From positions 199,903 to 263,902 of the forward strand of contig JAUSED010000003.1 of NCBI GenBank assembly GCA_030650425.1: a stretch of DNA of 64,000 nt, given 5' to 3'. Of this stretch, positions 41,505 to 51,726 are shown piece after piece (position 1 is the first letter of the stretch; each line of letters begins with the position of its first letter). The position numbers were made by a program, and so were the translations under genes. Origin of the DNA: Candidatus Omnitrophota bacterium (lineage in GTDB: Bacteria > Omnitrophota > Gorgyraeia > Gygaellales > Profunditerraquicolaceae). The notes below the pieces were generated by a model that saw only the letters and a list, made by a program, of their open reading frames with translations, made no database searches and was not told the origin of the DNA.

Positions 41505-42624
41505 CAAACTATCCATTATAACATTGACTTGTCTGCTTGTGATTAGTATCTTTAGCCCTACTTATGCCTCCGAGACCGTGCGTATAGCGATTATCCAAGA
41601 CACTTCATCCCTAAGCCTTAAGATTAAAGGTTTCTTCCAAATCAGGGATTTAGAAAAGCATAAAATCATCTACCACGCTAAAAGCATCGAGACAACCGTA
41701 ACCACCTATAAAAGCGGGATTGTTATCGGAGGGATTAAACCGGCTTCAGATAAGCTCTTGATTGAGTCAGATGACCCTGAGGCCTTCCTGATTAATGGCA
41801 AGTCCTTCCGGGGGAATATCCAACTAATCAAGAAGAGCAATAATAAACTATTGGTGATTAATTGTATTGAGCTTGAGGATTATATTAAGGGAATTCTGTA
41901 TCATGAATCTTCGCATTATTGGCCGATGGAGGCTTTAAAGGCGCAGGCGATTATCTCGCGTACTTACGCGCTTTATCAAATGCAGGAAAATAGGCGTAAA
42001 GATTTTGATCTGACCAGCGACATTTATTCTCAGGTTTATGGAGGAGAAGCTTCTGAGCGTTTTCGCACGAACAAGGCAGTGGATGAGACGCAAGGTAAAG
42101 CTCTCTTTTTTAAGGGAAAGATCATCCCGGCTTATTTTCACGCCACCTGCGGCGGGCATACGGAAGACGCGGCTCTCCTTTGGAATATCGATTTAGCGCC
42201 TTTAAAAGGAGTAGTCTGCCCTTATTGCAAAGAATCACCGCATTTTAACTGGCATTATGATTTTGGGCTAAAGGATATAGAAAAGAAGTTATCCGCTAAA
42301 GGATTTAAGCTAAAAAATATAACTAATCTAGGGATAGAAGGAAAAGATGCTTCGGGAAGGATTACTAATCTCATCATTAATTCAGAGCAGGGAGAAACTA
42401 AAGTCTCGGCTAAAGATTTTCGCGAGACGATCGGCCCAAATCTTATCCGGAGCACTAATTTTTCCGTGGCCATAGAGGGAAAAGACGCGGTTTTTGAAGG
42501 GATTGGCTGGGGACATGGCGTGGGGCTTTGCCAGTGGGGCGCCTATTTTATGGCTAAGGATGGCAAGAGCGCCGAAGAGATCTTAAAATATTACTATCCG
42601 GGGACAAATGTTAAAACTTTCTAA
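41497..42624 (+). CDS. SpoIID/LytB-domain protein (cell-wall amidase enhancer family)
   Basis: Signal peptide; YFHATCGGHTEDA motif. Confidence 0.7.
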   Translation: MNNKLSIITLTCLLVISIFSPTYASETVRIAIIQDTSSLSLKIKGFFQIRDLEKHKIIYHAKSIETTVTTYKSGIVIGGIKPASDKLLIESDDPEAFLINGKSFRGNIQLIKKSNNKLLVINCIELEDYIKGILYHESSHYWPMEALKAQAIISRTYALYQMQENRRKDFDLTSDIYSQVYGGEASERFRTNKAVDETQGKALFFKGKIIPAYFHATCGGHTEDAALLWNIDLAPLKGVVCPYCKESPHFNWHYDFGLKDIEKKLSAKGFKLKNITNLGIEGKDASGRITNLIINSEQGETKVSAKDFRETIGPNLIRSTNFSVAIEGKDAVFEGIGWGHGVGLCQWGAYFMAKDGKSAEEILKYYYPGTNVKTF

Positions 42625-43600
42625 TTTCGATTATCCCTTACCTAAAGAATTAATCGCCCAATATCCGCTTAAGGAGAGGGAGAGCGCGCGGCTGCTGGTG
42701 GTTAATCGGAGCGATAATTCAATCGAGCATAAAATATTTAAAGATCTAACGGGTTACCTTAAACAAAGCGATCTTTTAGTTCTAAATGATACCAAGGTGC
42801 TTACCTGCCGCTTGATGGGCCATAAGGCTACTGGCGGAAAAGTCGAGATTTTATTAACGAAACGTAAGAGCGGCTCTACTTTTGACGCGCTGATCCAGCC
42901 TAGCCGTACCAAAATCGGCGAAAAGATTTTTTTCGGTAAAAATGAAATCGCGGGAGTGGTCACTAACCGCAAAGAGATTACTTTTCAGCCAAAAGATGCT
43001 GATAGAATCTATGGGTTTGGAGAGGTTCCGCTTCCGCCTTATATAAAAAGAGAGCCTGAAGAGCTGGATAAAGAATATTATCAGACGGTTTATGCGGATA
43101 GGGAAGGCGCTATCGCTTCTCCGACCGCGGGCCTGCATTTTACCAAGGATTTATTAAAGCAAATAGAAGCGCAAGGGGTAAATATCGCGCATTTAACTTT
43201 GCATGTCGGCTTGGGCACATTTAAGCCGGTCATCACTGATGATATTACTGAGCATCAGATGGAGCCGGAGACTTTTCAGGTTTCCAAAAGCGCGCAGGAG
43301 AAGATAGAAGCAGCGCGCAAGAACAAATCGCGGATCATTGCCGTAGGGACAACGTCGCTGAGGGCATTAGAGGCTTATGCCGCAGGCGCCAAAGAAGGCC
43401 AGACTAATCTGTTTATTTACCCGGGTTATAAATTTAAGCTGGTCAATTGCCTGCTGACGAATTTCCATCTGCCCAAGACCACGCTTTTTATGCTCGTCTG
43501 CGCCTTTGGCGGAGAGAAATTAATCAAACAAGCGTATCAGGAAGCACTGGATAAGAAATACCGATTTTACAGCTACGGCGACGCAATGTTGATAATTTAA
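42608..43600 (+). CDS. queA: S-adenosylmethionine:tRNA ribosyltransferase-isomerase
   Basis: LSNFDYPLPKELIAQYPLKERESARLLVV; C-terminal NFHLPKTTLFMLV. Confidence 0.9.
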   Translation: MLKLSNFDYPLPKELIAQYPLKERESARLLVVNRSDNSIEHKIFKDLTGYLKQSDLLVLNDTKVLTCRLMGHKATGGKVEILLTKRKSGSTFDALIQPSRTKIGEKIFFGKNEIAGVVTNRKEITFQPKDADRIYGFGEVPLPPYIKREPEELDKEYYQTVYADREGAIASPTAGLHFTKDLLKQIEAQGVNIAHLTLHVGLGTFKPVITDDITEHQMEPETFQVSKSAQEKIEAARKNKSRIIAVGTTSLRALEAYAAGAKEGQTNLFIYPGYKFKLVNCLLTNFHLPKTTLFMLVCAFGGEKLIKQAYQEALDKKYRFYSYGDAMLII

Positions 43601-43608
43601 CACACCGA

Positions 43609-43663
43609 AAGGGACAGTTTCCGCAGATGGCTATTGCGAAGCTTGGACAGGAAACTGTCCCTT
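43609..43663. repeat. 14-bp perfect inverted repeat AAGGGACAGTTTCC...GGAAACTGTCCCTT enclosing a 27-nt loop, at the left edge of the accessory island
   Basis: Seen directly, 9 nt after the queA stop. Confidence 0.5.
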
Positions 43664-45036: not shown

Positions 45037-45075
45037 TGGGCACATTTTGAGCACAAGCTGTTCTTGAAGCATTCT

Positions 45076-45107
45076 AGGGACACGACATTTAATTCCTCGG
45101 AGAAAAG
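45076..45107 (+). repeat. intron-less paralog of the group II intron homing site (AGGGACA|CGACATTTAATTCCTCGGAGAAAAG)
   Basis: Matches the joined exons of the occupied site (…GGGGACA [intron] CGATACTTAATTCCTCGGAGAAAAG) over ~40 nt. Confidence 0.55.
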
Positions 45108-45166
45108 ATAATTAAGTAATGTGTCCCCGGAAATTCTGTGTATAGTAACCTTTACTTTCTTAACCT

Positions 45167-45649
45167 ATGTATTTCAATACTACGCTAGGAGCTAAAATAA
45201 ACAATAAGAAACCAACTAGTTTAGCTGGATTATTTTTTATTGGACTAATTTTTATAGCTGTATTTTTTATAGGAGGGAATGCTTCATTATTAACTCAAAA
45301 TATAGCTAACTGGCCTAAAGCTAAAGCCGAAGTTATTTCCGTTGAACCTGAAATCGTTTGTGAAACACCAGAAAGATCTAGCGCTTGCTACACTATATTT
45401 TTTATTAAATATTCATACAACGTAAATGGAAAAGAATACATTAACCAAATGAAACAAGAATATGTAACTAATTATATTCCTGGAAAAACATTTGATGTAC
45501 TTTATAAACAAGACAATCCTCAGCTTGTTTTTAAAAAGGATGACCTTCCCGGTAAATTCAAACTTTATCTATCCTTAATAATTGGATTGATTATCGTCAT
45601 CCCTATTATGTTTTTTTGGAAACAGAAACGAAACAGACGTGTTCCCTAA
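45167..45649 (+). CDS. DUF3592-like two-TM membrane protein
   Basis: TM1, then ...WPKAKAEVISVE...YSYNVNGKEYIN...GKTFDVLYKQDNPQ..., then TM2. This is the DUF3592 topology and motif pattern. Confidence 0.5.
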   Translation: MYFNTTLGAKINNKKPTSLAGLFFIGLIFIAVFFIGGNASLLTQNIANWPKAKAEVISVEPEIVCETPERSSACYTIFFIKYSYNVNGKEYINQMKQEYVTNYIPGKTFDVLYKQDNPQLVFKKDDLPGKFKLYLSLIIGLIIVIPIMFFWKQKRNRRVP

Positions 45650-45822
45650 CACTTAGCAATTTCAATAGTTGTAAATAAAATCTCCGCTCTTTGATAAATT
45701 AAAACTGTATTCCTTCCAGAGGGAATACATCTGCCAAATCTTCCGGCGCTAAAACCGCATCAGGCCTACGATGGAGACGGCGGAAGGGTAAAGAAGACAA
45801 CCGGCTCACCCGCTAACCCGCT

Positions 45823-45905
45823 GAAGAATTCCGTGAAGAATTCCGGGCAGAAGAATTCCCAATTCCGGGCAATTCCGCAATTCCGGCAATTCCGCAATTC
45901 AGGGG
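45823..45905. repeat. degenerate tandem array (~8 units) of AATTCCG/GAAGAATTCCG immediately 5' of the group II intron
   Basis: gaagaattccgt gaagaattccggg cagaagaattccc aattccgggc aattccgc aattccggc aattccgc aattcagggg. Confidence 0.7.
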
Positions 45906-46402
45906 ACAGTGCGCCAAGAAAGCTAATATGAACAGGCCGTAATAAACGGCACGGTCAAAGACTAACCATCAGGCCGTTACTATAGCTCTGCGTACAGCGA
46001 GGTAATAAGCTGTATGAAGCCAGAGTGAAGGAGATTGTCAACCGTAACGCAAGTGAAGGCAGTAAGTCCCGAAATGAATACGTCGCAGTGGGCTAATGGT
46101 TTGTCCCCTATGAAGCCAGCAGTATCACGCGCGTAAAGGTGAGTGCGTGATGTCCTGCCGGGATTGTAAGCCACAGTGGGCAATCAATATGTTTGTATTG
46201 GAACTTGTGAGAACCAACGTGTTTCCCATAAGTCGTCAACGAGCTTCTAAAGAAGCAAGGAGATGATAAGGCACGTTGGTAGTCGGACTAACTCATAGTA
46301 CTCAATGATATTGGGAAAGCCAATAACAAGGGGAAGGGGTTAGCAGTTAAAGTTGCACGAGGCTAAGGAAACATTGAGCGGACTCAAAGTCTGTGGAAAG
46401 CA

Positions 46403-47701
46403 ATGGAAACAAAATTAGACTCACTAAGTCAGTATGCCGCAAAAGAACCTCAGCGGAAATTCGTTAACATAATGTATCAGGTTAACGAAAGTTCTTTGAA
46501 GGCGAACTTCTATCTGCTCGGCAGGAAACGTGCAGTAGGAGTGGATGGCGTAGGTTGGCAGGAATATGGAGAAGGATTAGATGCCAACATCGATAACCTC
46601 TTGGAACGGATGAAGAGAATGGGCTATCGGCCGCAACCTGTAAGACGGGTGTATATACCTAAAGGCAGGAATGATAAAAGGCCTTTGGGTATCCCCACGG
46701 TAGAAGATAAGGTTGCGCAGAAGACAATGAGCCGGATTATGGAAGCGGTTTATGAACAAGACTTCTATGAATTCTCATACGGATTCCGTCCGGGAAAGAG
46801 TTGTCATCAGGCGCTTAAGCGAGTCGGCGAAATTATCAACTTTAAGCCAATCAACCATATTATCGAAGCGGACATCAAAGGGTTCTTCGATAACGTAGGA
46901 CACGAAAAGCTAATGGAATTGGTAAGAAGGAGAATTACCGATAAGAAATTCCTGCGTTATATCGTGCGCTTCCTGAAAGCCGGATATATTGAATCCGGTT
47001 TGTTAAAGGAAGCAAAACAAGGCACTCCGCAGGGAGGAAACTTAAGCCCGTTATTGGCTAACATATTTCTGCATTATGTGCTGGATGAATGGTTTGAAAA
47101 GGAGTTGAAACCGACTCTTGTAGGCCAGTGTTATTTGGTGAGGTATTGCGACGATTTTGTTATCTTGACGCAATATCAGCAAGAGGCAAAGACGGTAATG
47201 ACCCGGCTGCAAGAGAGATTCGAGGCATATGGCCTTGAACTCAACACGGAGAAATCAGGAGTAATAAGTTTTGGCCGCTATGAGCGGGAAAATGCCGAAA
47301 AACAGCTAAGGCGGGCAAATACTTTTGATTTCTTAGGGTTTACGCATTACTGCGCTTTGACACGTAAAGGCAAATTCAAGGTTAGTCGAAGGACAAGTGC
47401 TGAAAGATTCCGTAAGAGCCTCAGAGAAATATATCTCTGGCTCAAGGCTTTCAAGAATACGATTAGCATTAAGGAGTTATGGACACAGCTTGTAAGTAAA
47501 TTAAGAGGGCATTATCAATATTATGGTGTGAGTGAAAATCTTAGGAGGTTGCAAGAATTTTACCACCACATAGAAGATATGGCCTTTAAATTGCTCAACC
47601 GGCGGTGCGATAAGAAGTCCTTCAACTGGCGGGGATTCTGCAAATACTTGCAACGGTTTCCATTACCCAAGCCGCACATAGTATGTAACTTTTACGCATA
47701 A
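46403..47701 (+). CDS. group II intron-encoded reverse transcriptase/maturase (RT domains 0-7 + X; no En domain evident)
   Basis: RPLGIPTVEDKVAQ (RT1), FRPGKSCHQA (RT2), QGTPQGGNLSPLLANIFL (RT4), YCDDFVIL (RT5 YxDD), maturase X tail. Confidence 0.9.
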   Translation: METKLDSLSQYAAKEPQRKFVNIMYQVNESSLKANFYLLGRKRAVGVDGVGWQEYGEGLDANIDNLLERMKRMGYRPQPVRRVYIPKGRNDKRPLGIPTVEDKVAQKTMSRIMEAVYEQDFYEFSYGFRPGKSCHQALKRVGEIINFKPINHIIEADIKGFFDNVGHEKLMELVRRRITDKKFLRYIVRFLKAGYIESGLLKEAKQGTPQGGNLSPLLANIFLHYVLDEWFEKELKPTLVGQCYLVRYCDDFVILTQYQQEAKTVMTRLQERFEAYGLELNTEKSGVISFGRYERENAEKQLRRANTFDFLGFTHYCALTRKGKFKVSRRTSAERFRKSLREIYLWLKAFKNTISIKELWTQLVSKLRGHYQYYGVSENLRRLQEFYHHIEDMAFKLLNRRCDKKSFNWRGFCKYLQRFPLPKPHIVCNFYA

Positions 47702-47727
47702 CCGAATACTGATGGAAACTTACTGAA

Positions 47728-47760
47728 GAGCCGTATGCGGGAAATCCGCAAGTACGGTTC
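47728..47760 (+). ncRNA. group II intron catalytic domain V
   Basis: Canonical 33-34-nt hairpin with AGC and GAAA tetraloop. Confidence 0.8.
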
Positions 47761-47883
47761 TGTGAGGGGCTCTGAAATACGGGCCTACTCGACCGATACT
47801 TAATTCCTCGGAGAAAAGGAACGAACGGGGGGCGTCCCAAAAAGGGACACCCTTGGTTTAGCTGATGCGATGAAGAATCGTAA

Positions 47884-48300
47884 CTAATCCCTATAAAATC
47901 CTATTCTGCGCTTGGGTTTTTCCGGGGGAGCCATAAGCTGGCGGATGGCTTCAAATATCTCTTTGATCGTCTGGTTGTGTTCGGCATATCTCTTCTCAAG
48001 TGATTCAATCTTTACAGCTAATTCTTTATGCGTTAAAAGAATTAGCCTTAGTTTAGTAAAGGCCCGCATAATTAATATATTTACTTGAATGTCCCTTTCA
48101 CTATTTAGCACACTTGAGAGCATAGCCACTCCTTGTTCGGTAAAGACATAAGGTAGATATTTAATGTTTTGGCCTTGTTTCAAGGACGCAAAATGCGACC
48201 TTGAATTTAAGATCACATTTTGTGATCTTAAAGAATCCAATTCTTCATTTGTAATTTGAAACATGAAATCATGGTGAAAAGCGGTATTAGTTCTTTCATT
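47884..48300 (-). pseudogene. 5'-truncated ORF6N-domain gene remnant
   Basis: FQITNEELDSLRSQNV...YLPYVFTEQGVAMLSSVLNSERDIQVNILIMRAF matches the ORF6N core. Homology (..FHHDFMFQ..) continues upstream of the ATG to an in-frame stop at 48301-48303. The usual first ~40 aa of the domain are absent. Confidence 0.6.
48210..48228. repeat. palindrome P1 AGATCACA-TTT-TGTGATCT (TCACA-N3-TGTGA core), inside the ORF6N remnant
   Basis: Seen directly; encodes RSQNVIL in the remnant. Confidence 0.7.
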
Positions 48301-48379
48301 TTATTCTCGTCTCTACTATAATAGACGTAAGATAAGGTAAAATCTAACAAAGAATTATTTAAATAACAAGGCAAATGCA

Positions 48380-48398
48380 ATGTTTGAACTAATTCAGC
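48380..48398 (+). repeat. orphan copy of tgt 5' end (ATGTTTGAACTAATTCAGC); 18/19 identical to tgt start at 49476-49494
   Basis: Direct comparison of the two sites. Confidence 0.8.
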
Positions 48399-48403
48399 CT
48401 AAT

Positions 48404-48430
48404 CTTGAAGTCACAAATTGTGACTTCAAG
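48404..48430. promoter_or_regulatory. palindrome P2 CTTGAAGTCACA-AAT-TGTGACTTCAAG (12-bp arms)
   Basis: Seen directly, in the intergenic region upstream of the 48531 gene. Confidence 0.5.
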
Positions 48431-48468
48431 ATTTAAAGTGAAAAATAGACGCTGAACGTATTGTTCAA

Positions 48469-48487
48469 GATCGCAATTTGTGATCTC
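48469..48487. promoter_or_regulatory. palindrome P3 AGATCGCA-ATT-TGTGATCT; near-copy of P1 including flanks (TTCAAGATC...ATCTCAAAG)
   Basis: Seen directly, ~45 nt upstream of the GTG start at 48531. Confidence 0.5.
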
Positions 48488-48530
48488 AAAGGTTATCGGA
48501 AACGCAGACACTACTCAAAGGGAGGGAAAG

Positions 48531-49001
48531 GTGAAAAAGTATATTATTTTTCTCTTATTTTTCCTGGCTTTGAATATTAACGTTTATTGCGGCCAGGAAA
48601 GCAGGATTGAGTTGACTGATGGCAGCGTGCTTAACGGAGAAGTAACTTCTTTAGCCAGCGGCACTTATACTATCAACACCGCTTCTATGGGCGTAATAAA
48701 AATTGACGCGGCAAAGGTCGCTAAAATTGAATCAGTGAAATCCTCCGCGCTTAGTTCAGCAATTAATCTTACACCGGCACAAATTAACAGCTATAAGCAA
48801 AAAATTATGGGTAATCCGGATGCAGCCGCCGCAATCAAAAGTCTATCTGCTAATCCTCAGATTAAGGCGTTAGCGGAAGATCCGGAAATTGTCAATGCCG
48901 CCAAGTCCGGGAATATCCAAGAATTGTTCAGTAACAAAAAGTTTACGGATGTTTTAGAAAGCCCTGAGATACAAGAAACAGCTAAGAAAATTAAGCAATA
49001 G
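48531..49001 (+). CDS. hypothetical secreted protein with NP/DP (STI1-like) repeats
   Basis: GTG start with ggaggg RBS; signal peptide KKYIIFLLFFLALNINVYCG; repeats NPDAAAAIK / NPQIKALAEDPEIVNAAK / SPEIQETAKK. Confidence 0.5.
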   Translation: MKKYIIFLLFFLALNINVYCGQESRIELTDGSVLNGEVTSLASGTYTINTASMGVIKIDAAKVAKIESVKSSALSSAINLTPAQINSYKQKIMGNPDAAAAIKSLSANPQIKALAEDPEIVNAAKSGNIQELFSNKKFTDVLESPEIQETAKKIKQ

Positions 49002-49015
49002 CAAGGAGAGATGTT

Positions 49016-49480
49016 ATGGGTAAGAAGATAAAGCGGATAATCGCTAAAGAAGGGTTGATCATTATCGCCATCGCGGCGATAATGTATATTTTTAAGACAT
49101 TCGTGCCCTCTTTCACGTTCCCTTATCCGAAAGTGAAATTAGCATTCCAGGATGGAACCTCGAATATTATAGAGATCTATCCGGAGATGACTACCTCTGA
49201 GCTCGCGGGTAAGATCGGCCCAAGCGGGTTGATCAAGAAATATCATTGCCCAACCCCTGAACTTATCTCCAAGCGGATCGATAAATTCATCCAGGAGAAC
49301 AAAAAGACTTCAGCGCTGGTTGATAAAAAGTGTGTGAATGAAAAACAGCTCTATCTGTATAGGGCATACTTTAATTTCCTGTTTCAACCTTTGCCTTTTA
49401 GGACATTAACTATCTATCTTTTCTTATTACTTATCCGTTTCATTGGCTGGGCGGTCAGGGTATTGAATAAAAATGTTTGA
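49016..49480 (+). CDS. hypothetical membrane protein (N- and C-terminal TM helices)
   Basis: RBS aggagag; stop overlaps the tgt ATG (ATGTTTGA). Confidence 0.45.
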   Translation: MGKKIKRIIAKEGLIIIAIAAIMYIFKTFVPSFTFPYPKVKLAFQDGTSNIIEIYPEMTTSELAGKIGPSGLIKKYHCPTPELISKRIDKFIQENKKTSALVDKKCVNEKQLYLYRAYFNFLFQPLPFRTLTIYLFLLLIRFIGWAVRVLNKNV

Positions 49481-50615
49481 ATTAATTCAGCAAGATAAAA
49501 ATAGCGGGGCGAGGCTGGGAAAGCTGACTACGGAGCATGGGGTAATCAATACGCCTTGTTTTATGCCTGTTGGGACGCACGCGACCATCAAAGGGCTTTA
49601 TCCTAAGGATGTGGAAGAGGCAGGCGCGGAAATTATGCTCTCTAATACCTATCATTTGTTCTTACGGCCGGGAATGGAGATTATCCGTAAAGCCAAGGGA
49701 TTACACAACTTTATTGCGTGGAAAAAGCCGATTCTTACGGATAGCGGTGGTTATCAGGTGTTTAGTTTAGCGCTTTTAAGGAAGCTAAGCGATAAAGGCG
49801 TGGAGTTTCAGTCGCATATCGATGGATTTAAACATTTCCTGACTCCTGAAGATGTAATCGACATACAACAGGATTTAGGCTCGGATATTATGATGCCGCT
49901 GGATGAATGTGTGCATTACCCCTGCGGAAAAGATCAGGCGGAAGTAGCGATGAAGCGCACGATCAATTGGGCTAAACGTTCGCATAAGCATCTAGAAGAG
50001 CATAAAAAGCATGGTCCAACCAAGAAGCAGCTCCTTTTTGGTATTGTGCAGGGCGCGACCTACGAAGACCTGCGTACTGAATGCGCCAAGGAATTAACCG
50101 ATATTGATTTCGATGGCTTTAGCATTGGCGGAGTTTCTGTTGGCGAACCCAGCGATTTAATCTATAATATATTATCTTTTAGCGCGAAATTACTTCCTCA
50201 GCATAAGCCGCGTTATGCTATGGGCATAGGTTATCCGCCGGATATCATCGAGGCAGTGGAGCGAGGGATTGATATGTTTGATTGTGTGGTTCCTACCCGT
50301 TACGGCAGGAATGGAACCGCTTTTACCAGTACCGGAAAGATAATTATCAGGAACGCTCCCTTTGCCGAAGATTTTAGGGCACTCGATGCTAAATGCGGCT
50401 GCTATACCTGTAAGACTTTCAGCCGGGCATACCTGCGCCATTTGTTTAACGCGCAGGAGATGCTCGGTTTGACCTTACTTTCTTTACACAATGTTTATTT
50501 CTTTTTGGATTTGGCGCGTAAGATCAGAGAGGCAATTCGGCAGGATAGGTTTAGTGACTTCAAAAAAGAATTCTTGAGTCAGTATAATAGTTTGATAGGG
50601 GACACTTTCCTTTAA
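49473..50615 (+). CDS. tgt: queuine tRNA-ribosyltransferase
   Basis: HGVINTPCFMPVGTHATIKGL; LTDSGGYQVFSL; zinc site CGCYTCKTFSRAYLRHL. Confidence 0.9.
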   Translation: MFELIQQDKNSGARLGKLTTEHGVINTPCFMPVGTHATIKGLYPKDVEEAGAEIMLSNTYHLFLRPGMEIIRKAKGLHNFIAWKKPILTDSGGYQVFSLALLRKLSDKGVEFQSHIDGFKHFLTPEDVIDIQQDLGSDIMMPLDECVHYPCGKDQAEVAMKRTINWAKRSHKHLEEHKKHGPTKKQLLFGIVQGATYEDLRTECAKELTDIDFDGFSIGGVSVGEPSDLIYNILSFSAKLLPQHKPRYAMGIGYPPDIIEAVERGIDMFDCVVPTRYGRNGTAFTSTGKIIIRNAPFAEDFRALDAKCGCYTCKTFSRAYLRHLFNAQEMLGLTLLSLHNVYFFLDLARKIREAIRQDRFSDFKKEFLSQYNSLIGDTFL

Positions 50616-50677
50616 AGTATTTCCGATAGCTTTGATGGAAAGTGTCCCCTAATAGTGAGGTTTGGATGGATTTAACT

Positions 50678-51349
50678 ATGCGTATTGATATTATCACTAT
50701 TTTCCCTAAAATGTTTGAGCCGGTGTTGAATGAGTCAATTATGCGGCGCGCGCAGGCTAAGGGTAAAGTTAAGTTCTTTATCCATGATTTACGGGATTAT
50801 ACCAGTGATAAACACCGTAAAGTGGATGACCGGGTCTTTGGCGGCGGTTCAGGTATGCTGATGCGGCCAGAACCGATTTTTAATGCCATAGCGAAATTAA
50901 AGCGTCAAGCCAAGGTAATTTTACTTTCTCCTCAAGGGAAAAAATTAGACCAGAAGATTGTCAAAAGATTATCCAAAGAGAAGAATCTCATTCTGATTTG
51001 CGGCCATTATGAAGGAGTGGATGAAAGAGTACGCGAAAAATTGGTTGATGAAGAGATTTCCATTGGAGATTATGTCTTGACCGGAGGAGAGCTGCCGGCT
51101 ATGGTTTTGGTAGATAGCCTTGTCCGGCTTATCCCGGGAGTTTTAGGGGATAAAAATTCCTTGAATTTTGAGTCATTTGAAGGTAATCTATTAGAACATC
51201 CGCATTATACCCGTCCGGCAAATTTCCGGCGGATGAAAGTTCCGGAAGTGCTGCTTTCCGGAGACCATCAAAAAATCGAAGCCTGGAGAAAGAAAGAGGC
51301 GCTCAAAAGAACCAAGCAAAGGCGCCCAGATTTATTAAACAGTAAGTAA
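50678..51349 (+). CDS. trmD: tRNA (guanine37-N1)-methyltransferase
   Basis: [15 protein letters not shown] is the canonical TrmD start; track ORF begins 36 nt earlier. [10 protein letters not shown]; [14 protein letters not shown]. Confidence 0.85.
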
Positions 51350-51369
51350 GAGAGGAGAAACAAACACAC

Positions 51370-51726
51370 ATGGATAAAATGAAACTCATTGAGTCACAAT
51401 TTGTGAAAAAAGACGTACCGGAGTTTGGGGTCGGAGATACGGTCAAGGTGATGACTAGAATCCCCGAGGGCCCGGATAAGTTCCGCCTGCATCCTTTTGA
51501 GGGAGTAGTTATTGCTAAAGAAGGTTCCGGGGCAAGGGAACATTTTACGGTGAGAAAAATTTCTTACGGAGAGGGGATTGAACGCGTATTCCCGCTTTAT
51601 TCTCCGAGTATTGAGCGCATTGAACTTATCCACTCAGGAAAAGTAAGAAGGGCTAAGCTTTATTATTTAAGAGGTAAAGTTGGCAAGCGCGCCACCAAAA
51701 TCGAAAGCAAGCAAGAGAAGAAATAG
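51370..51726 (+). CDS. rplS: 50S ribosomal protein L19
   Basis: [21 protein letters not shown]...[16 protein letters not shown]. Confidence 0.9.

What the first reader, a model, noticed from the sequence alone, without database searches (positions are those of the whole stretch)
48380..49494. 19-bp direct duplication of the tgt start bracketing a 1.1-kb segment
ATGTTTGAACTAATTCAGC at 48380-48398 matches the real tgt start at 49476-49494 with 18 of 19 identities. The second copy includes the ATG and the first six codons. The bracketed DNA carries P2/P3, the NP/DP-repeat secreted protein gene and a membrane protein gene whose stop overlaps the tgt ATG. Chance is negligible. This is either a long target-site duplication from insertion at the 5' end of tgt, or a recombination scar. 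Either way the island was built in at least two steps, and tgt now depends on translational coupling or a promoter supplied by the insert.
Basis: seen in the sequence. Interest (0 to 1): 0.6.

Follow-up and report, generated by a model that had tools for sequence, protein, structure and literature searches.

The report
Orphan tgt-start copy: recombination scar
A 20-base copy of the start of the tRNA-modification gene tgt sits 1.1 kb upstream of the real gene in an Omnitrophota genome; it is most likely a small, functionless scar left by sloppy recombination in a palindrome-rich, fast-rearranging spot, not the footprint of a mobile element.

Summary
The repeat is real: AATGTTTGAAcTAATTCAGC (48379-48398) matches AATGTTTGAAtTAATTCAGC (49472-49491) at 19 of 20 bases. 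Chance is small but not negligible: about 0.02 such pairs within 2 kb per 64-kb window.

The unit-insertion (target-site duplication) reading is not supported.
- The bracketed DNA has no recombinase and no terminal inverted repeats.
- Its two genes are conserved Omnitrophota genes that lie apart and in other contexts in relatives.
- The closest relative found (L170) has the identical membrane-gene/tgt junction (ATGTTTGA overlap) and P2. It lacks P3, the secreted-protein gene and any detectable orphan.

The DNA upstream of the tgt ATG differs in every relative, so this is a rearrangement hot spot. The orphan exactly fills the gap between two recognisable modules. One is the left-flank motif that elsewhere precedes a palindrome next to ORF6N genes. 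The other is P2's own flank. Short microhomologies lie at both joints.

Best reading: a scar of illegitimate recombination or template switching. The "at least two steps" claim is supported. The claim about tgt expression is untested. This is an ordinary kind of feature and of low interest.

The parts
48379..48398 (+). Orphan copy of the tgt start (AATGTTTGAACTAATTCAGC). It opens a 19-codon ORF, MFELIQPNLEVTNCDFKI*, that runs through P2.
49472..49491 (+). Native copy: the base before the tgt ATG plus its first six codons and one base. It also contains the TGA stop of the membrane-protein gene.
   Evidence: The identical 19-mer is at the tgt start of L172.
48368..48378 (+). AAGGCAAATGC, a 9-of-11 match to AAGGCAGACGC. 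That motif directly precedes a palindrome in L081 and L169. Here it directly precedes the orphan.
48397..48436 (+). Palindrome P2 (perfect 16-nt arms, 48401-48433) with its own left flank GCCTAAT. The flank shares its first two bases (GC) with the end of the orphan. P2 is homologous to palindromes in L170, L169, L168 and L161.
48447..48491 (+). AGACGC motif plus palindrome P3 (ATTGTTCAAGATCGCAATTTGTGATCTCAAAG). Absent from L170.
48531..49001 (+). Gene for a secreted protein (signal peptide, NP/DP/SP-E/Q-I repeats). It is conserved in Omnitrophota, sits in other contexts elsewhere, and is absent between P2 and the membrane gene in L170.
49016..49480 (+). Gene for a small membrane protein, conserved in Omnitrophota. 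It lies near ORF6N genes and palindromes in L161, L168 and L169, and is fused to tgt with the same 8-nt overlap in L170.
49473..50615 (+). tgt (queuine tRNA-ribosyltransferase). It is the first gene of the conserved block tgt-trmD-rplS-rnhB.
47884..48307 (-). Degraded ORF6N gene. The open frame 47884-48264 lacks the N-terminal 54 residues. The remnant of the true start (MKELIPLF) is at 48307. The internal palindrome P1 is at 48206-48233. The conserved 5' region reaches about 48360.
45909..47793 (+). Group II intron with reverse transcriptase (46403-47701), inserted inside a REP-like hairpin element. This is one of the separate steps that built the island.
42608..43600 (+). queA. It is directly adjacent to tgt in relative L001 and marks the left edge of the 5.9-kb variable region.

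Best explanation
The orphan 20-mer is a functionless scar: a short patch copied from the genome's own tgt start by illegitimate, microhomology-guided recombination. The most economical version is a replication template switch at a palindrome. A duplication followed by a deletion would give the same product.

Shown:
- The DNA just upstream of the tgt ATG is a rearrangement hot spot. It carries ORF6N genes, a family of 28-33-bp palindromes, REP-like hairpins and a group II intron.
- The patch sits exactly between two module boundaries. On its left is the motif AAGGCAnnnGC, which in relatives is followed by a palindrome. On its right is P2's own flank, GCCTAAT.
- The outer left arm of such palindromes (ATTGTTTAAG in L169, P3-like; AATGTTTAAG in three viral copies) resembles the tgt start (AATGTTTGAA). 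The patch ends in GC, which is also the first two bases of the P2 flank.

Inferred: a palindrome that once stood after the motif was bypassed. The nascent strand jumped to the look-alike tgt start 1.1 kb downstream, copied about 12-19 bases, and jumped back at GC.

The membrane-gene/tgt junction is older than this event. The secreted-protein gene and P3 are a separate gain in this lineage, or a loss in L170.
For: - The repeat is real and short, with no significant extension.
- Upstream neighbours of tgt differ in every relative: queA in L001; two flavodoxin-like genes in L002; a Flavodoxin_4 gene preceded by unannotated ORFs in L172; a radical-SAM-like gene (my reading of the ORF, not scanned) plus a palindrome in L081; a REP transposase, REP hairpin, P2 and the membrane gene in L170. 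The downstream block tgt-trmD-rplS-rnhB is constant in L001 and L172 as in the window.
- L170 shares the membrane-gene/tgt junction and P2, but not P3, the secreted-protein gene or the orphan.
- The exact motif AAGGCAGACGC occurs only twice in 219 kb of Omnitrophota loci, each time directly before a palindrome. The window has a 9-of-11 version directly before the orphan.
- The ORF6N promoter region is conserved up to about 48360.
- P2's homology with L170 starts at 48397, inside the last two bases of the orphan.
- The palindromes keep perfect arms through compensatory changes and fold strongly as hairpins. This is the substrate expected for template switching.
- The bracket has no recombinase and no inverted ends.
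Against: - No relative close enough was found to show the state immediately before the event, so the mechanism is inferred from junction anatomy only.
- The microhomologies are short and AT-rich.
- The 19-mer is conserved at the tgt start (identical in L172), so the similarity does not date the orphan. It could predate the split from L170 and have been lost there. An anchored comparison of L170's flank gives a weak, inconclusive signal (p about 0.04-0.10).
- Pure chance has roughly a 2% per-window probability before allowing for the gene-start register.
- The orphan-P2 joint is supported only by the one assembly. The independent Logan contig L165 starts inside P2.
Confidence: 0.55

Rival explanations
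1. Target-site or att-core duplication. The 1.07-kb segment (P2, P3 and two genes) entered tgt after codon 6 as one unit, through a staggered cut or site-specific recombination. This duplicated 20 bp and so restored an intact tgt.
For: - Direct 19/20 repeats lie exactly at the two ends of a segment, and the right copy regenerates the gene start.
- The membrane ORF now borrows its last codons and its stop from the repeat.
- The site is insertion-polymorphic among relatives.
Against: - The bracket has no integrase or transposase, and none was found elsewhere in the 5.9-kb island apart from the intron reverse transcriptase.
- There are no terminal inverted repeats.
- By my own knowledge of these families, 20 bp is longer than the duplications made by most bacterial transposons.
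- The two genes are conserved chromosomal genes that are never adjacent to each other in relatives.
- L170 has the right-hand junction and P2 without the secreted-protein gene, P3 or a detectable left copy. The bracket is therefore not one unit.
Confidence: 0.15
2. Chance resemblance, helped by AT-rich sequence and by the similarity between the outer arm of the palindrome family (ATTGTTTAAG or AATGTTTAAG) and the tgt start.
For: - Simulations give 0.32 such pairs per window at any distance and 0.02 within 2 kb. In a scan of many windows, some will occur.
- The first 10 bases of the orphan resemble the left arm of palindromes in L169, P3 and viral contigs.
- The match does not extend.
Against: - The second half (CTAATTCAGC against TTAATTCAGC, 9 of 10) has no counterpart in the palindrome family.
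- The repeat is in exact register with the tgt ATG.
- It fills precisely the gap between two module boundaries.
- The orphan is closer to this genome's own tgt start (1 difference) than to those of L170 or L081 (3 differences each).
Confidence: 0.15
3. A functional leader. The orphan provides a start codon for a short upstream ORF (MFELIQPNLEVTNCDFKI*) that is translated through the P2 hairpin and controls expression of the downstream genes, tgt included.
For: - A complete 19-codon ORF with an AAGG 8 nt upstream runs across a very stable hairpin.
- No terminator-like site was found between P2 and the tgt start except one inside the membrane ORF at 49060-49084.
Against: - It is not conserved. 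L170 has P2 and the same downstream junction but no such ORF.
- L169 has the same palindromes before the membrane gene without it.
- Nothing links identity with the tgt N-terminus to any known regulatory logic.
Confidence: 0.07

Closest known systems
Template-switch and microhomology-mediated rearrangements at palindromes and quasipalindromes (illegitimate recombination scars, filler DNA).
   Same: A short patch copied in cis and in direct orientation. Junctions lie at short microhomologies. The site is next to strong hairpin-forming palindromes, in a region that rearranges repeatedly.
   Different: The event itself is not observed. No before-and-after pair of genomes is available, and the microhomologies are only 2-10 nt and AT-rich.
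Target-site duplications of transposable elements, and att-core repeats of integrative islands that rebuild the 5' end of the target gene.
   Same: Direct repeats bracket a segment that is absent from some relatives. The right-hand repeat preserves an intact gene start.
   Different: There is no recombinase, no inverted ends and no mobile-type cargo. The bracket is composite (L170). By my own knowledge, 20 bp is atypical for transposon duplications, and att-type elements normally carry their own integrase.
REP elements with REP-associated tyrosine transposases (RAYTs).
   Same: The neighbourhood contains hairpin repeats (GGGGACA...TGTCCCC type). A RAYT gene lies next to one of them in L170 (NCBIfam NF047646, 84 bits against a cut-off of 80). 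One copy hosts the group II intron.
   Different: These hairpins are a different family from P1-P3. Such elements are not known to me to create 20-bp duplications. No RAYT was found in the island of the window.
ORF6N (KilA-N-like) proteins; PADLOC defence candidate PDC-S05.
   Same: The gene next to the orphan matches Pfam ORF6N and PDC-S05. Such genes recur in variable regions next to the membrane-protein gene in relatives.
   Different: The window copy is truncated and probably dead. No activity on DNA rearrangement is known for this family. The link between ORF6N genes and the palindromes is an association seen here, not a described system.

Membership tests
Transposon or insertion-sequence insertion with target-site duplication | Direct repeats of target sequence immediately flanking the element | tested here: met
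   A 19/20 direct repeat at 48379-48398 and 49472-49491.
Transposon or insertion-sequence insertion with target-site duplication | Terminal inverted repeats, or other defined element ends, just inside the duplication | tested here: not met
   The inverted-repeat search of 45500-51500 finds no pair joining about 48400 with about 49470. A palindrome is present at the left end only.
Transposon or insertion-sequence insertion with target-site duplication | A transposase inside the element, or cargo typical of a non-autonomous derivative | tested here: not met
   The two bracketed proteins have no Pfam or NCBIfam hit. They are conserved Omnitrophota genes found in other chromosomal contexts.
Transposon or insertion-sequence insertion with target-site duplication | An empty site in relatives: the whole bracket absent and a single copy of the target | tested here: not met
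   Relatives have one 19-mer, but none lacks exactly the bracket. L170 keeps P2, the membrane gene and the right junction, while lacking P3 and the secreted-protein gene.
Integrative island with att-core repeats at the 5' end of a gene | A tyrosine or serine integrase encoded at one end of the island | tested here: not met
   No integrase domain was found in any ORF from 43.6 to 49.5 kb. The only enzyme of mobile DNA is the group II intron reverse transcriptase.
Integrative island with att-core repeats at the 5' end of a gene | The same island with the same att core recurs in other genomes | tested here: not met
   The contents upstream of tgt differ in L001, L002, L081, L170 and L172.
Microhomology-mediated or template-switch scar | A short templated patch whose donor lies nearby in cis, in the same orientation | tested here: met
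   A 20-nt patch with its donor 1093 bp downstream, in direct orientation and with no extension.
Microhomology-mediated or template-switch scar | Microhomology at both junctions between donor and recipient sequences | tested here: inconclusive
   Left junction: the palindrome outer arm ATTGTTTAAG or AATGTTTAAG against the tgt start AATGTTTGAA. Right junction: a shared GC, where the homology with L170's P2 flank starts at 48397. The matches are short and AT-rich, and the recipient sequence before the event is inferred from relatives.
Microhomology-mediated or template-switch scar | A before-and-after comparison showing the event | not testable with these tools
   No relative closer than L170 covers the left junction. 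The context look-ups and collection scans were exhausted.
Group II intron | Domains 1-4 and 5-6 RNA structure plus an intron-encoded reverse transcriptase/maturase | tested here: met
   Rfam RF02005 (98.5 bits) at 45942-46173 and RF00029 (61.8 bits) at 47726-47793. RVT_1 is above its cut-off (132.4 bits); GIIM is only a weak match below its cut-off (17.9 bits against 23). This concerns the neighbouring element, not the repeat itself.

The most novel reading that the evidence does not exclude
The 28-33-bp palindromes that accompany ORF6N genes could be the sites of an undescribed cassette-shuffling recombination system in Omnitrophota. In that reading, different genes (tgt in L081, the membrane gene in L169 and L170, the secreted-protein gene here) are placed behind the same 'AAGGCAGACGC + palindrome' unit. 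The 20-bp duplication of the tgt start would then be the staggered-cut footprint of that system, not an accident.
Probability: 0.07. Interest if true: 0.6.

Novelty: new member of a known kind. Interest (0 to 1): 0.18.

Why it matters
By itself it matters little. It is one more example of a short ectopic duplication left by illegitimate recombination, in a metagenome-assembled genome, with no sign of function.

Its modest value is as a marker. It pins down one junction in a spot where gene order changes between genomes whose Tgt proteins are 91-98% identical. It also draws attention to a palindrome family tied to ORF6N genes that coincides with these breakpoints.

If that family turned out to be the substrate of a recombination system, the locus would be a useful entry point. 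The present evidence does not require this.

Tried and rejected
- **Extending the repeat.** Gapped local alignment of the two flanks gives only the 20-mer. A collinear AAGAT...AAAAATAG match after P2 is not significant (p 0.15-0.35), and AAGAT belongs to the palindrome arm.
- **Exact-protein look-up of the window's Tgt.** Not on record.
- **Scans of genome and metagenome collections with Tgt.** Closer relatives came only from the protein search and context look-ups.
- **A decayed orphan in L170, L169 and L081.** Not significant. An anchored test on L170 is borderline.
- **The orphan plus P2 as a fragment of an ORF6N gene** (MFQLT...LKSQIVTS). Only ATGTTT and the palindrome match, the spacing differs by 8 nt, and nothing downstream matches. 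Rejected.
- **Integron attC or Xer/dif-like sites.** No core-site pattern was seen by eye and no integrase was found in the island. This was not formally tested.
- **Assembly artefact.** An independent Logan contig confirms 48405-50234 exactly, but it starts inside P2, so it does not cover the orphan joint.
- **Promoter and terminator scan.** No better than shuffles.
- **PADLOC and NCBIfam on the unknown island ORFs.** No hits.
- **Literature.** Only 'ORF6N' was searched, giving 11 papers, and only one of them was opened; it does not mention palindromes or tgt.
- **The 19-mer in viral contigs.** Five exact matches were returned. I did not examine them, so that scan is uninformative.
Full report
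**1. The observation**

ATGTTTGAACTAATTCAGC lies at 48380-48398. Its only other match in the window, with one mismatch, is at 49473-49491, on the same strand. Including the preceding A, the match is 19 of 20, at 48379-48398 and 49472-49491, 1093 bp apart.

The right copy holds the ATG and six codons (MFELIQ). The upstream 154-aa membrane-protein ORF ends in a TGA inside it, which gives the overlap ATGTTTGA.

Chance is small but not negligible.
- Third-order Markov simulations give 0.32 such direct pairs per window at any distance, and 0.02 within 2 kb.
- The match does not extend beyond 20 nt.

**2. The setting**

The genome belongs to the Omnitrophota (record titles and source names). queA ends at 43600 and tgt starts at 49473. 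In relative L001 the two genes are 112 bp apart and are followed by trmD, rplS and rnhB, as in the window.

The 5.9 kb in between holds the following.
- Three ORFs, two of unknown function and one with a DUF3592 domain.
- A group II intron with its reverse transcriptase.
- A minus-strand ORF6N gene.
- Palindromes P1-P3.
- A secreted-protein gene and the membrane-protein gene.

The ORF6N copy is degraded. Its open frame lacks the first 54 residues that full-length relatives have. The remnant of the true start (MKELIPLF) lies out of frame at 48307. The 5' region of the gene is conserved with L161, L168 and L169 up to about 48360.

**3. Relatives**

The two bracketed genes are conserved Omnitrophota genes (63-78% identity). 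They occur in other neighbourhoods: after phoU, after a Band_7 gene, next to V-ATPase genes. They are never adjacent to each other.

The DNA directly upstream of the tgt ATG differs in every relative.

| Relative | Tgt identity to the window | What lies directly upstream of tgt |
|---|---|---|
| L001 | 73% | queA |
| L002 | 73% | two flavodoxin-like genes |
| L172 | 91% | Flavodoxin_4 gene, preceded by unannotated ORFs |
| L081 | 72% | radical-SAM-like gene (my reading of the ORF) plus one palindrome 10 nt before the ATG |
| L170 | 103 of the first 105 residues identical; 83% DNA over 774 nt | membrane-protein gene |

L170 is the closest relative found. Its order is: REP-associated tyrosine transposase gene, REP-like hairpin, a P2-like palindrome, the membrane gene, then tgt with the same ATGTTTGA overlap. 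It has no secreted-protein gene, no P3, and no significant copy of the 20-mer left of P2.

Three conclusions follow.
- The membrane-gene/tgt junction is older than the split from L170.
- The bracket is not a single unit.
- The tgt ATG is a recurrent synteny breakpoint.

The 19-mer at the tgt start is identical in L172, so it is conserved. The orphan's similarity therefore does not date it.

**4. Junction anatomy**

The exact motif AAGGCAGACGC occurs twice in 219 kb of Omnitrophota loci. Both times it directly precedes a palindrome of this family, in L081 (before tgt) and in L169 (between an ORF6N promoter and the membrane gene).

In the window, a 9-of-11 version (48368-48378) follows the ORF6N promoter. 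It is followed not by a palindrome but by the orphan. On the other side, homology between the window and L170 begins at 48397 (GCCTAAnCTTGAAG...), which is inside the last two bases of the orphan. The patch therefore fills exactly the space where relatives carry a palindrome.

The outer left arm of such palindromes resembles the tgt start AATGTTTGAA. It reads ATTGTTTAAG in L169 and ATTGTTCAAG in P3. It reads AATGTTTAAG in three of the viral copies. The palindromes fold strongly as hairpins.

**5. Mechanism**

The best-supported reading is a scar of illegitimate recombination. Replication stalled at the palindrome that followed the motif. The nascent strand switched to the look-alike tgt start 1.1 kb downstream, copied a dozen or so bases, and returned at the GC of the P2 flank. 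This replaced the palindrome with a tgt patch. A tandem duplication followed by a microhomology deletion would give the same product.

What is shown: the repeat, the hot spot, the module boundaries, the composite nature of the bracket and the absence of mobility genes. What is inferred: the switching event itself.

I give this reading 0.55. The rivals are as follows.
- Unit insertion with a 20-bp target duplication: 0.15.
- Chance: 0.15.
- A functional upstream ORF: 0.07.

**6. Comparison with known systems**

The feature works like the templated patches and deletions known at palindromes and quasipalindromes. It fails the membership tests for a transposon or an integrative island. It has no inverted ends, no recombinase, no empty site that matches the bracket, and no recurrence of the same block.

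**7. Other things seen**

A second 19/20 repeat (45087 and 47798) is explained. Both copies belong to a REP-like hairpin element. The group II intron (45909-47793) is inserted into the second copy between GGGGACA and CGATACTTAATTCC. The same element lies next to the transposase gene in L170.

Fourteen palindromes of the P1-P3 family were examined. Four lie inside ORF6N genes at the codons for (R/K)SQxV, and ten lie outside genes. They keep perfect arms through compensatory changes at five stem positions. The same palindrome occurs in 51 viral contigs. Only 4 of the 53 copies were detected inside ORF6N-like genes, and some lie in frame within a large phage ORF.

**8. Verdict**

The feature is real but ordinary. 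The 'long target-site duplication' is not. The claim about tgt expression is untested.

Interest is 0.18. Novelty is a new member of a known kind. The most novel reading not excluded is a palindrome-based cassette-shuffling system linked to ORF6N. I give it a probability of 0.07 and an interest of 0.6 if true.

Noticed in passing
window 45071-45132, 45902-45908 and 47794-47818; L170 605-666: A second 19/20 direct repeat (45087 and 47798) belongs to a REP-like hairpin element (GGGACA-CGACATTTAATTCCTCGGAGAAAAG...TGTGTCCCC). The group II intron (45909-47793) is inserted exactly inside one copy. The same element lies beside a REP-associated tyrosine transposase gene in L170.
   Followed up: yes
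window 48206-48233, 48401-48433, 48464-48491; L161 9035-9125 and 9430; L168 5690-6080, 6381 and 7300; L169 2661, 2982 and 3022; L170 685-717; L081 1335-1362: A family of 28-33-bp palindromes (core TCRCA-N3-TGYGA) occurs inside ORF6N genes, at the codons for (R/K)SQxV(T/I), and in arrays next to them. Across 14 copies the arms stay perfectly complementary through compensatory changes at five stem positions. The symmetry itself is therefore selected or self-correcting.
   Followed up: partly
L161 8001-9643; L168 5168-7608; L169 2362-3685; window 47884-49480: The small conserved membrane-protein gene lies within about 1 kb of ORF6N genes and their palindromes in four independent Omnitrophota lineages, each with a different arrangement. 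ORF6N matches the PADLOC defence candidate PDC-S05.
   Followed up: partly
window 47884-48307 (minus strand): The ORF6N gene is internally deleted. Its promoter and first eight codons (MKELIPLF) remain, but the frame is broken. The open ORF restarts at MFQITNEEL and so lacks half of the ORF6N domain.
   Followed up: yes
L222 5500-5740; L177; other IMG/VR loci L173-L223: The same palindrome occurs in 51 viral contigs. In L222 three copies lie in frame inside a 523-aa ORF, encoding KITNCDLKDK and KVADCDLKE. Elsewhere copies are flanked by A and T runs, like bidirectional terminators. L081 encodes the identical KITNCDLKDK just before tgt.
   Followed up: partly
window 43603-43660 and 50596-50651: Long hairpins of a shared type (AGGGACAGTTTCC...GGAAACTGTCCCT and AGGGGACACTTTCC...GGAAAGTGTCCCCT) follow queA and tgt. 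Similar 'GGAAACAGTTTC' hairpins occur in L161 and L168. They are probably another dispersed repeat or terminator family.
   Followed up: no
window 45812-45905: Short tandem repeats (GAAGAATTCC three times, GCAATTCC(G) four times) lie immediately upstream of the intron insertion site. Related GAAATTCTG repeats precede the REP-like hairpin in L170.
   Followed up: no
L165 (Logan SRR13727527 contig) = window 48405-50234: An independent assembly of the same sequence is 100% identical but breaks inside P2. The palindrome interrupts assembly graphs, and the orphan-P2 joint rests on the MAG assembly alone.
   Followed up: yes
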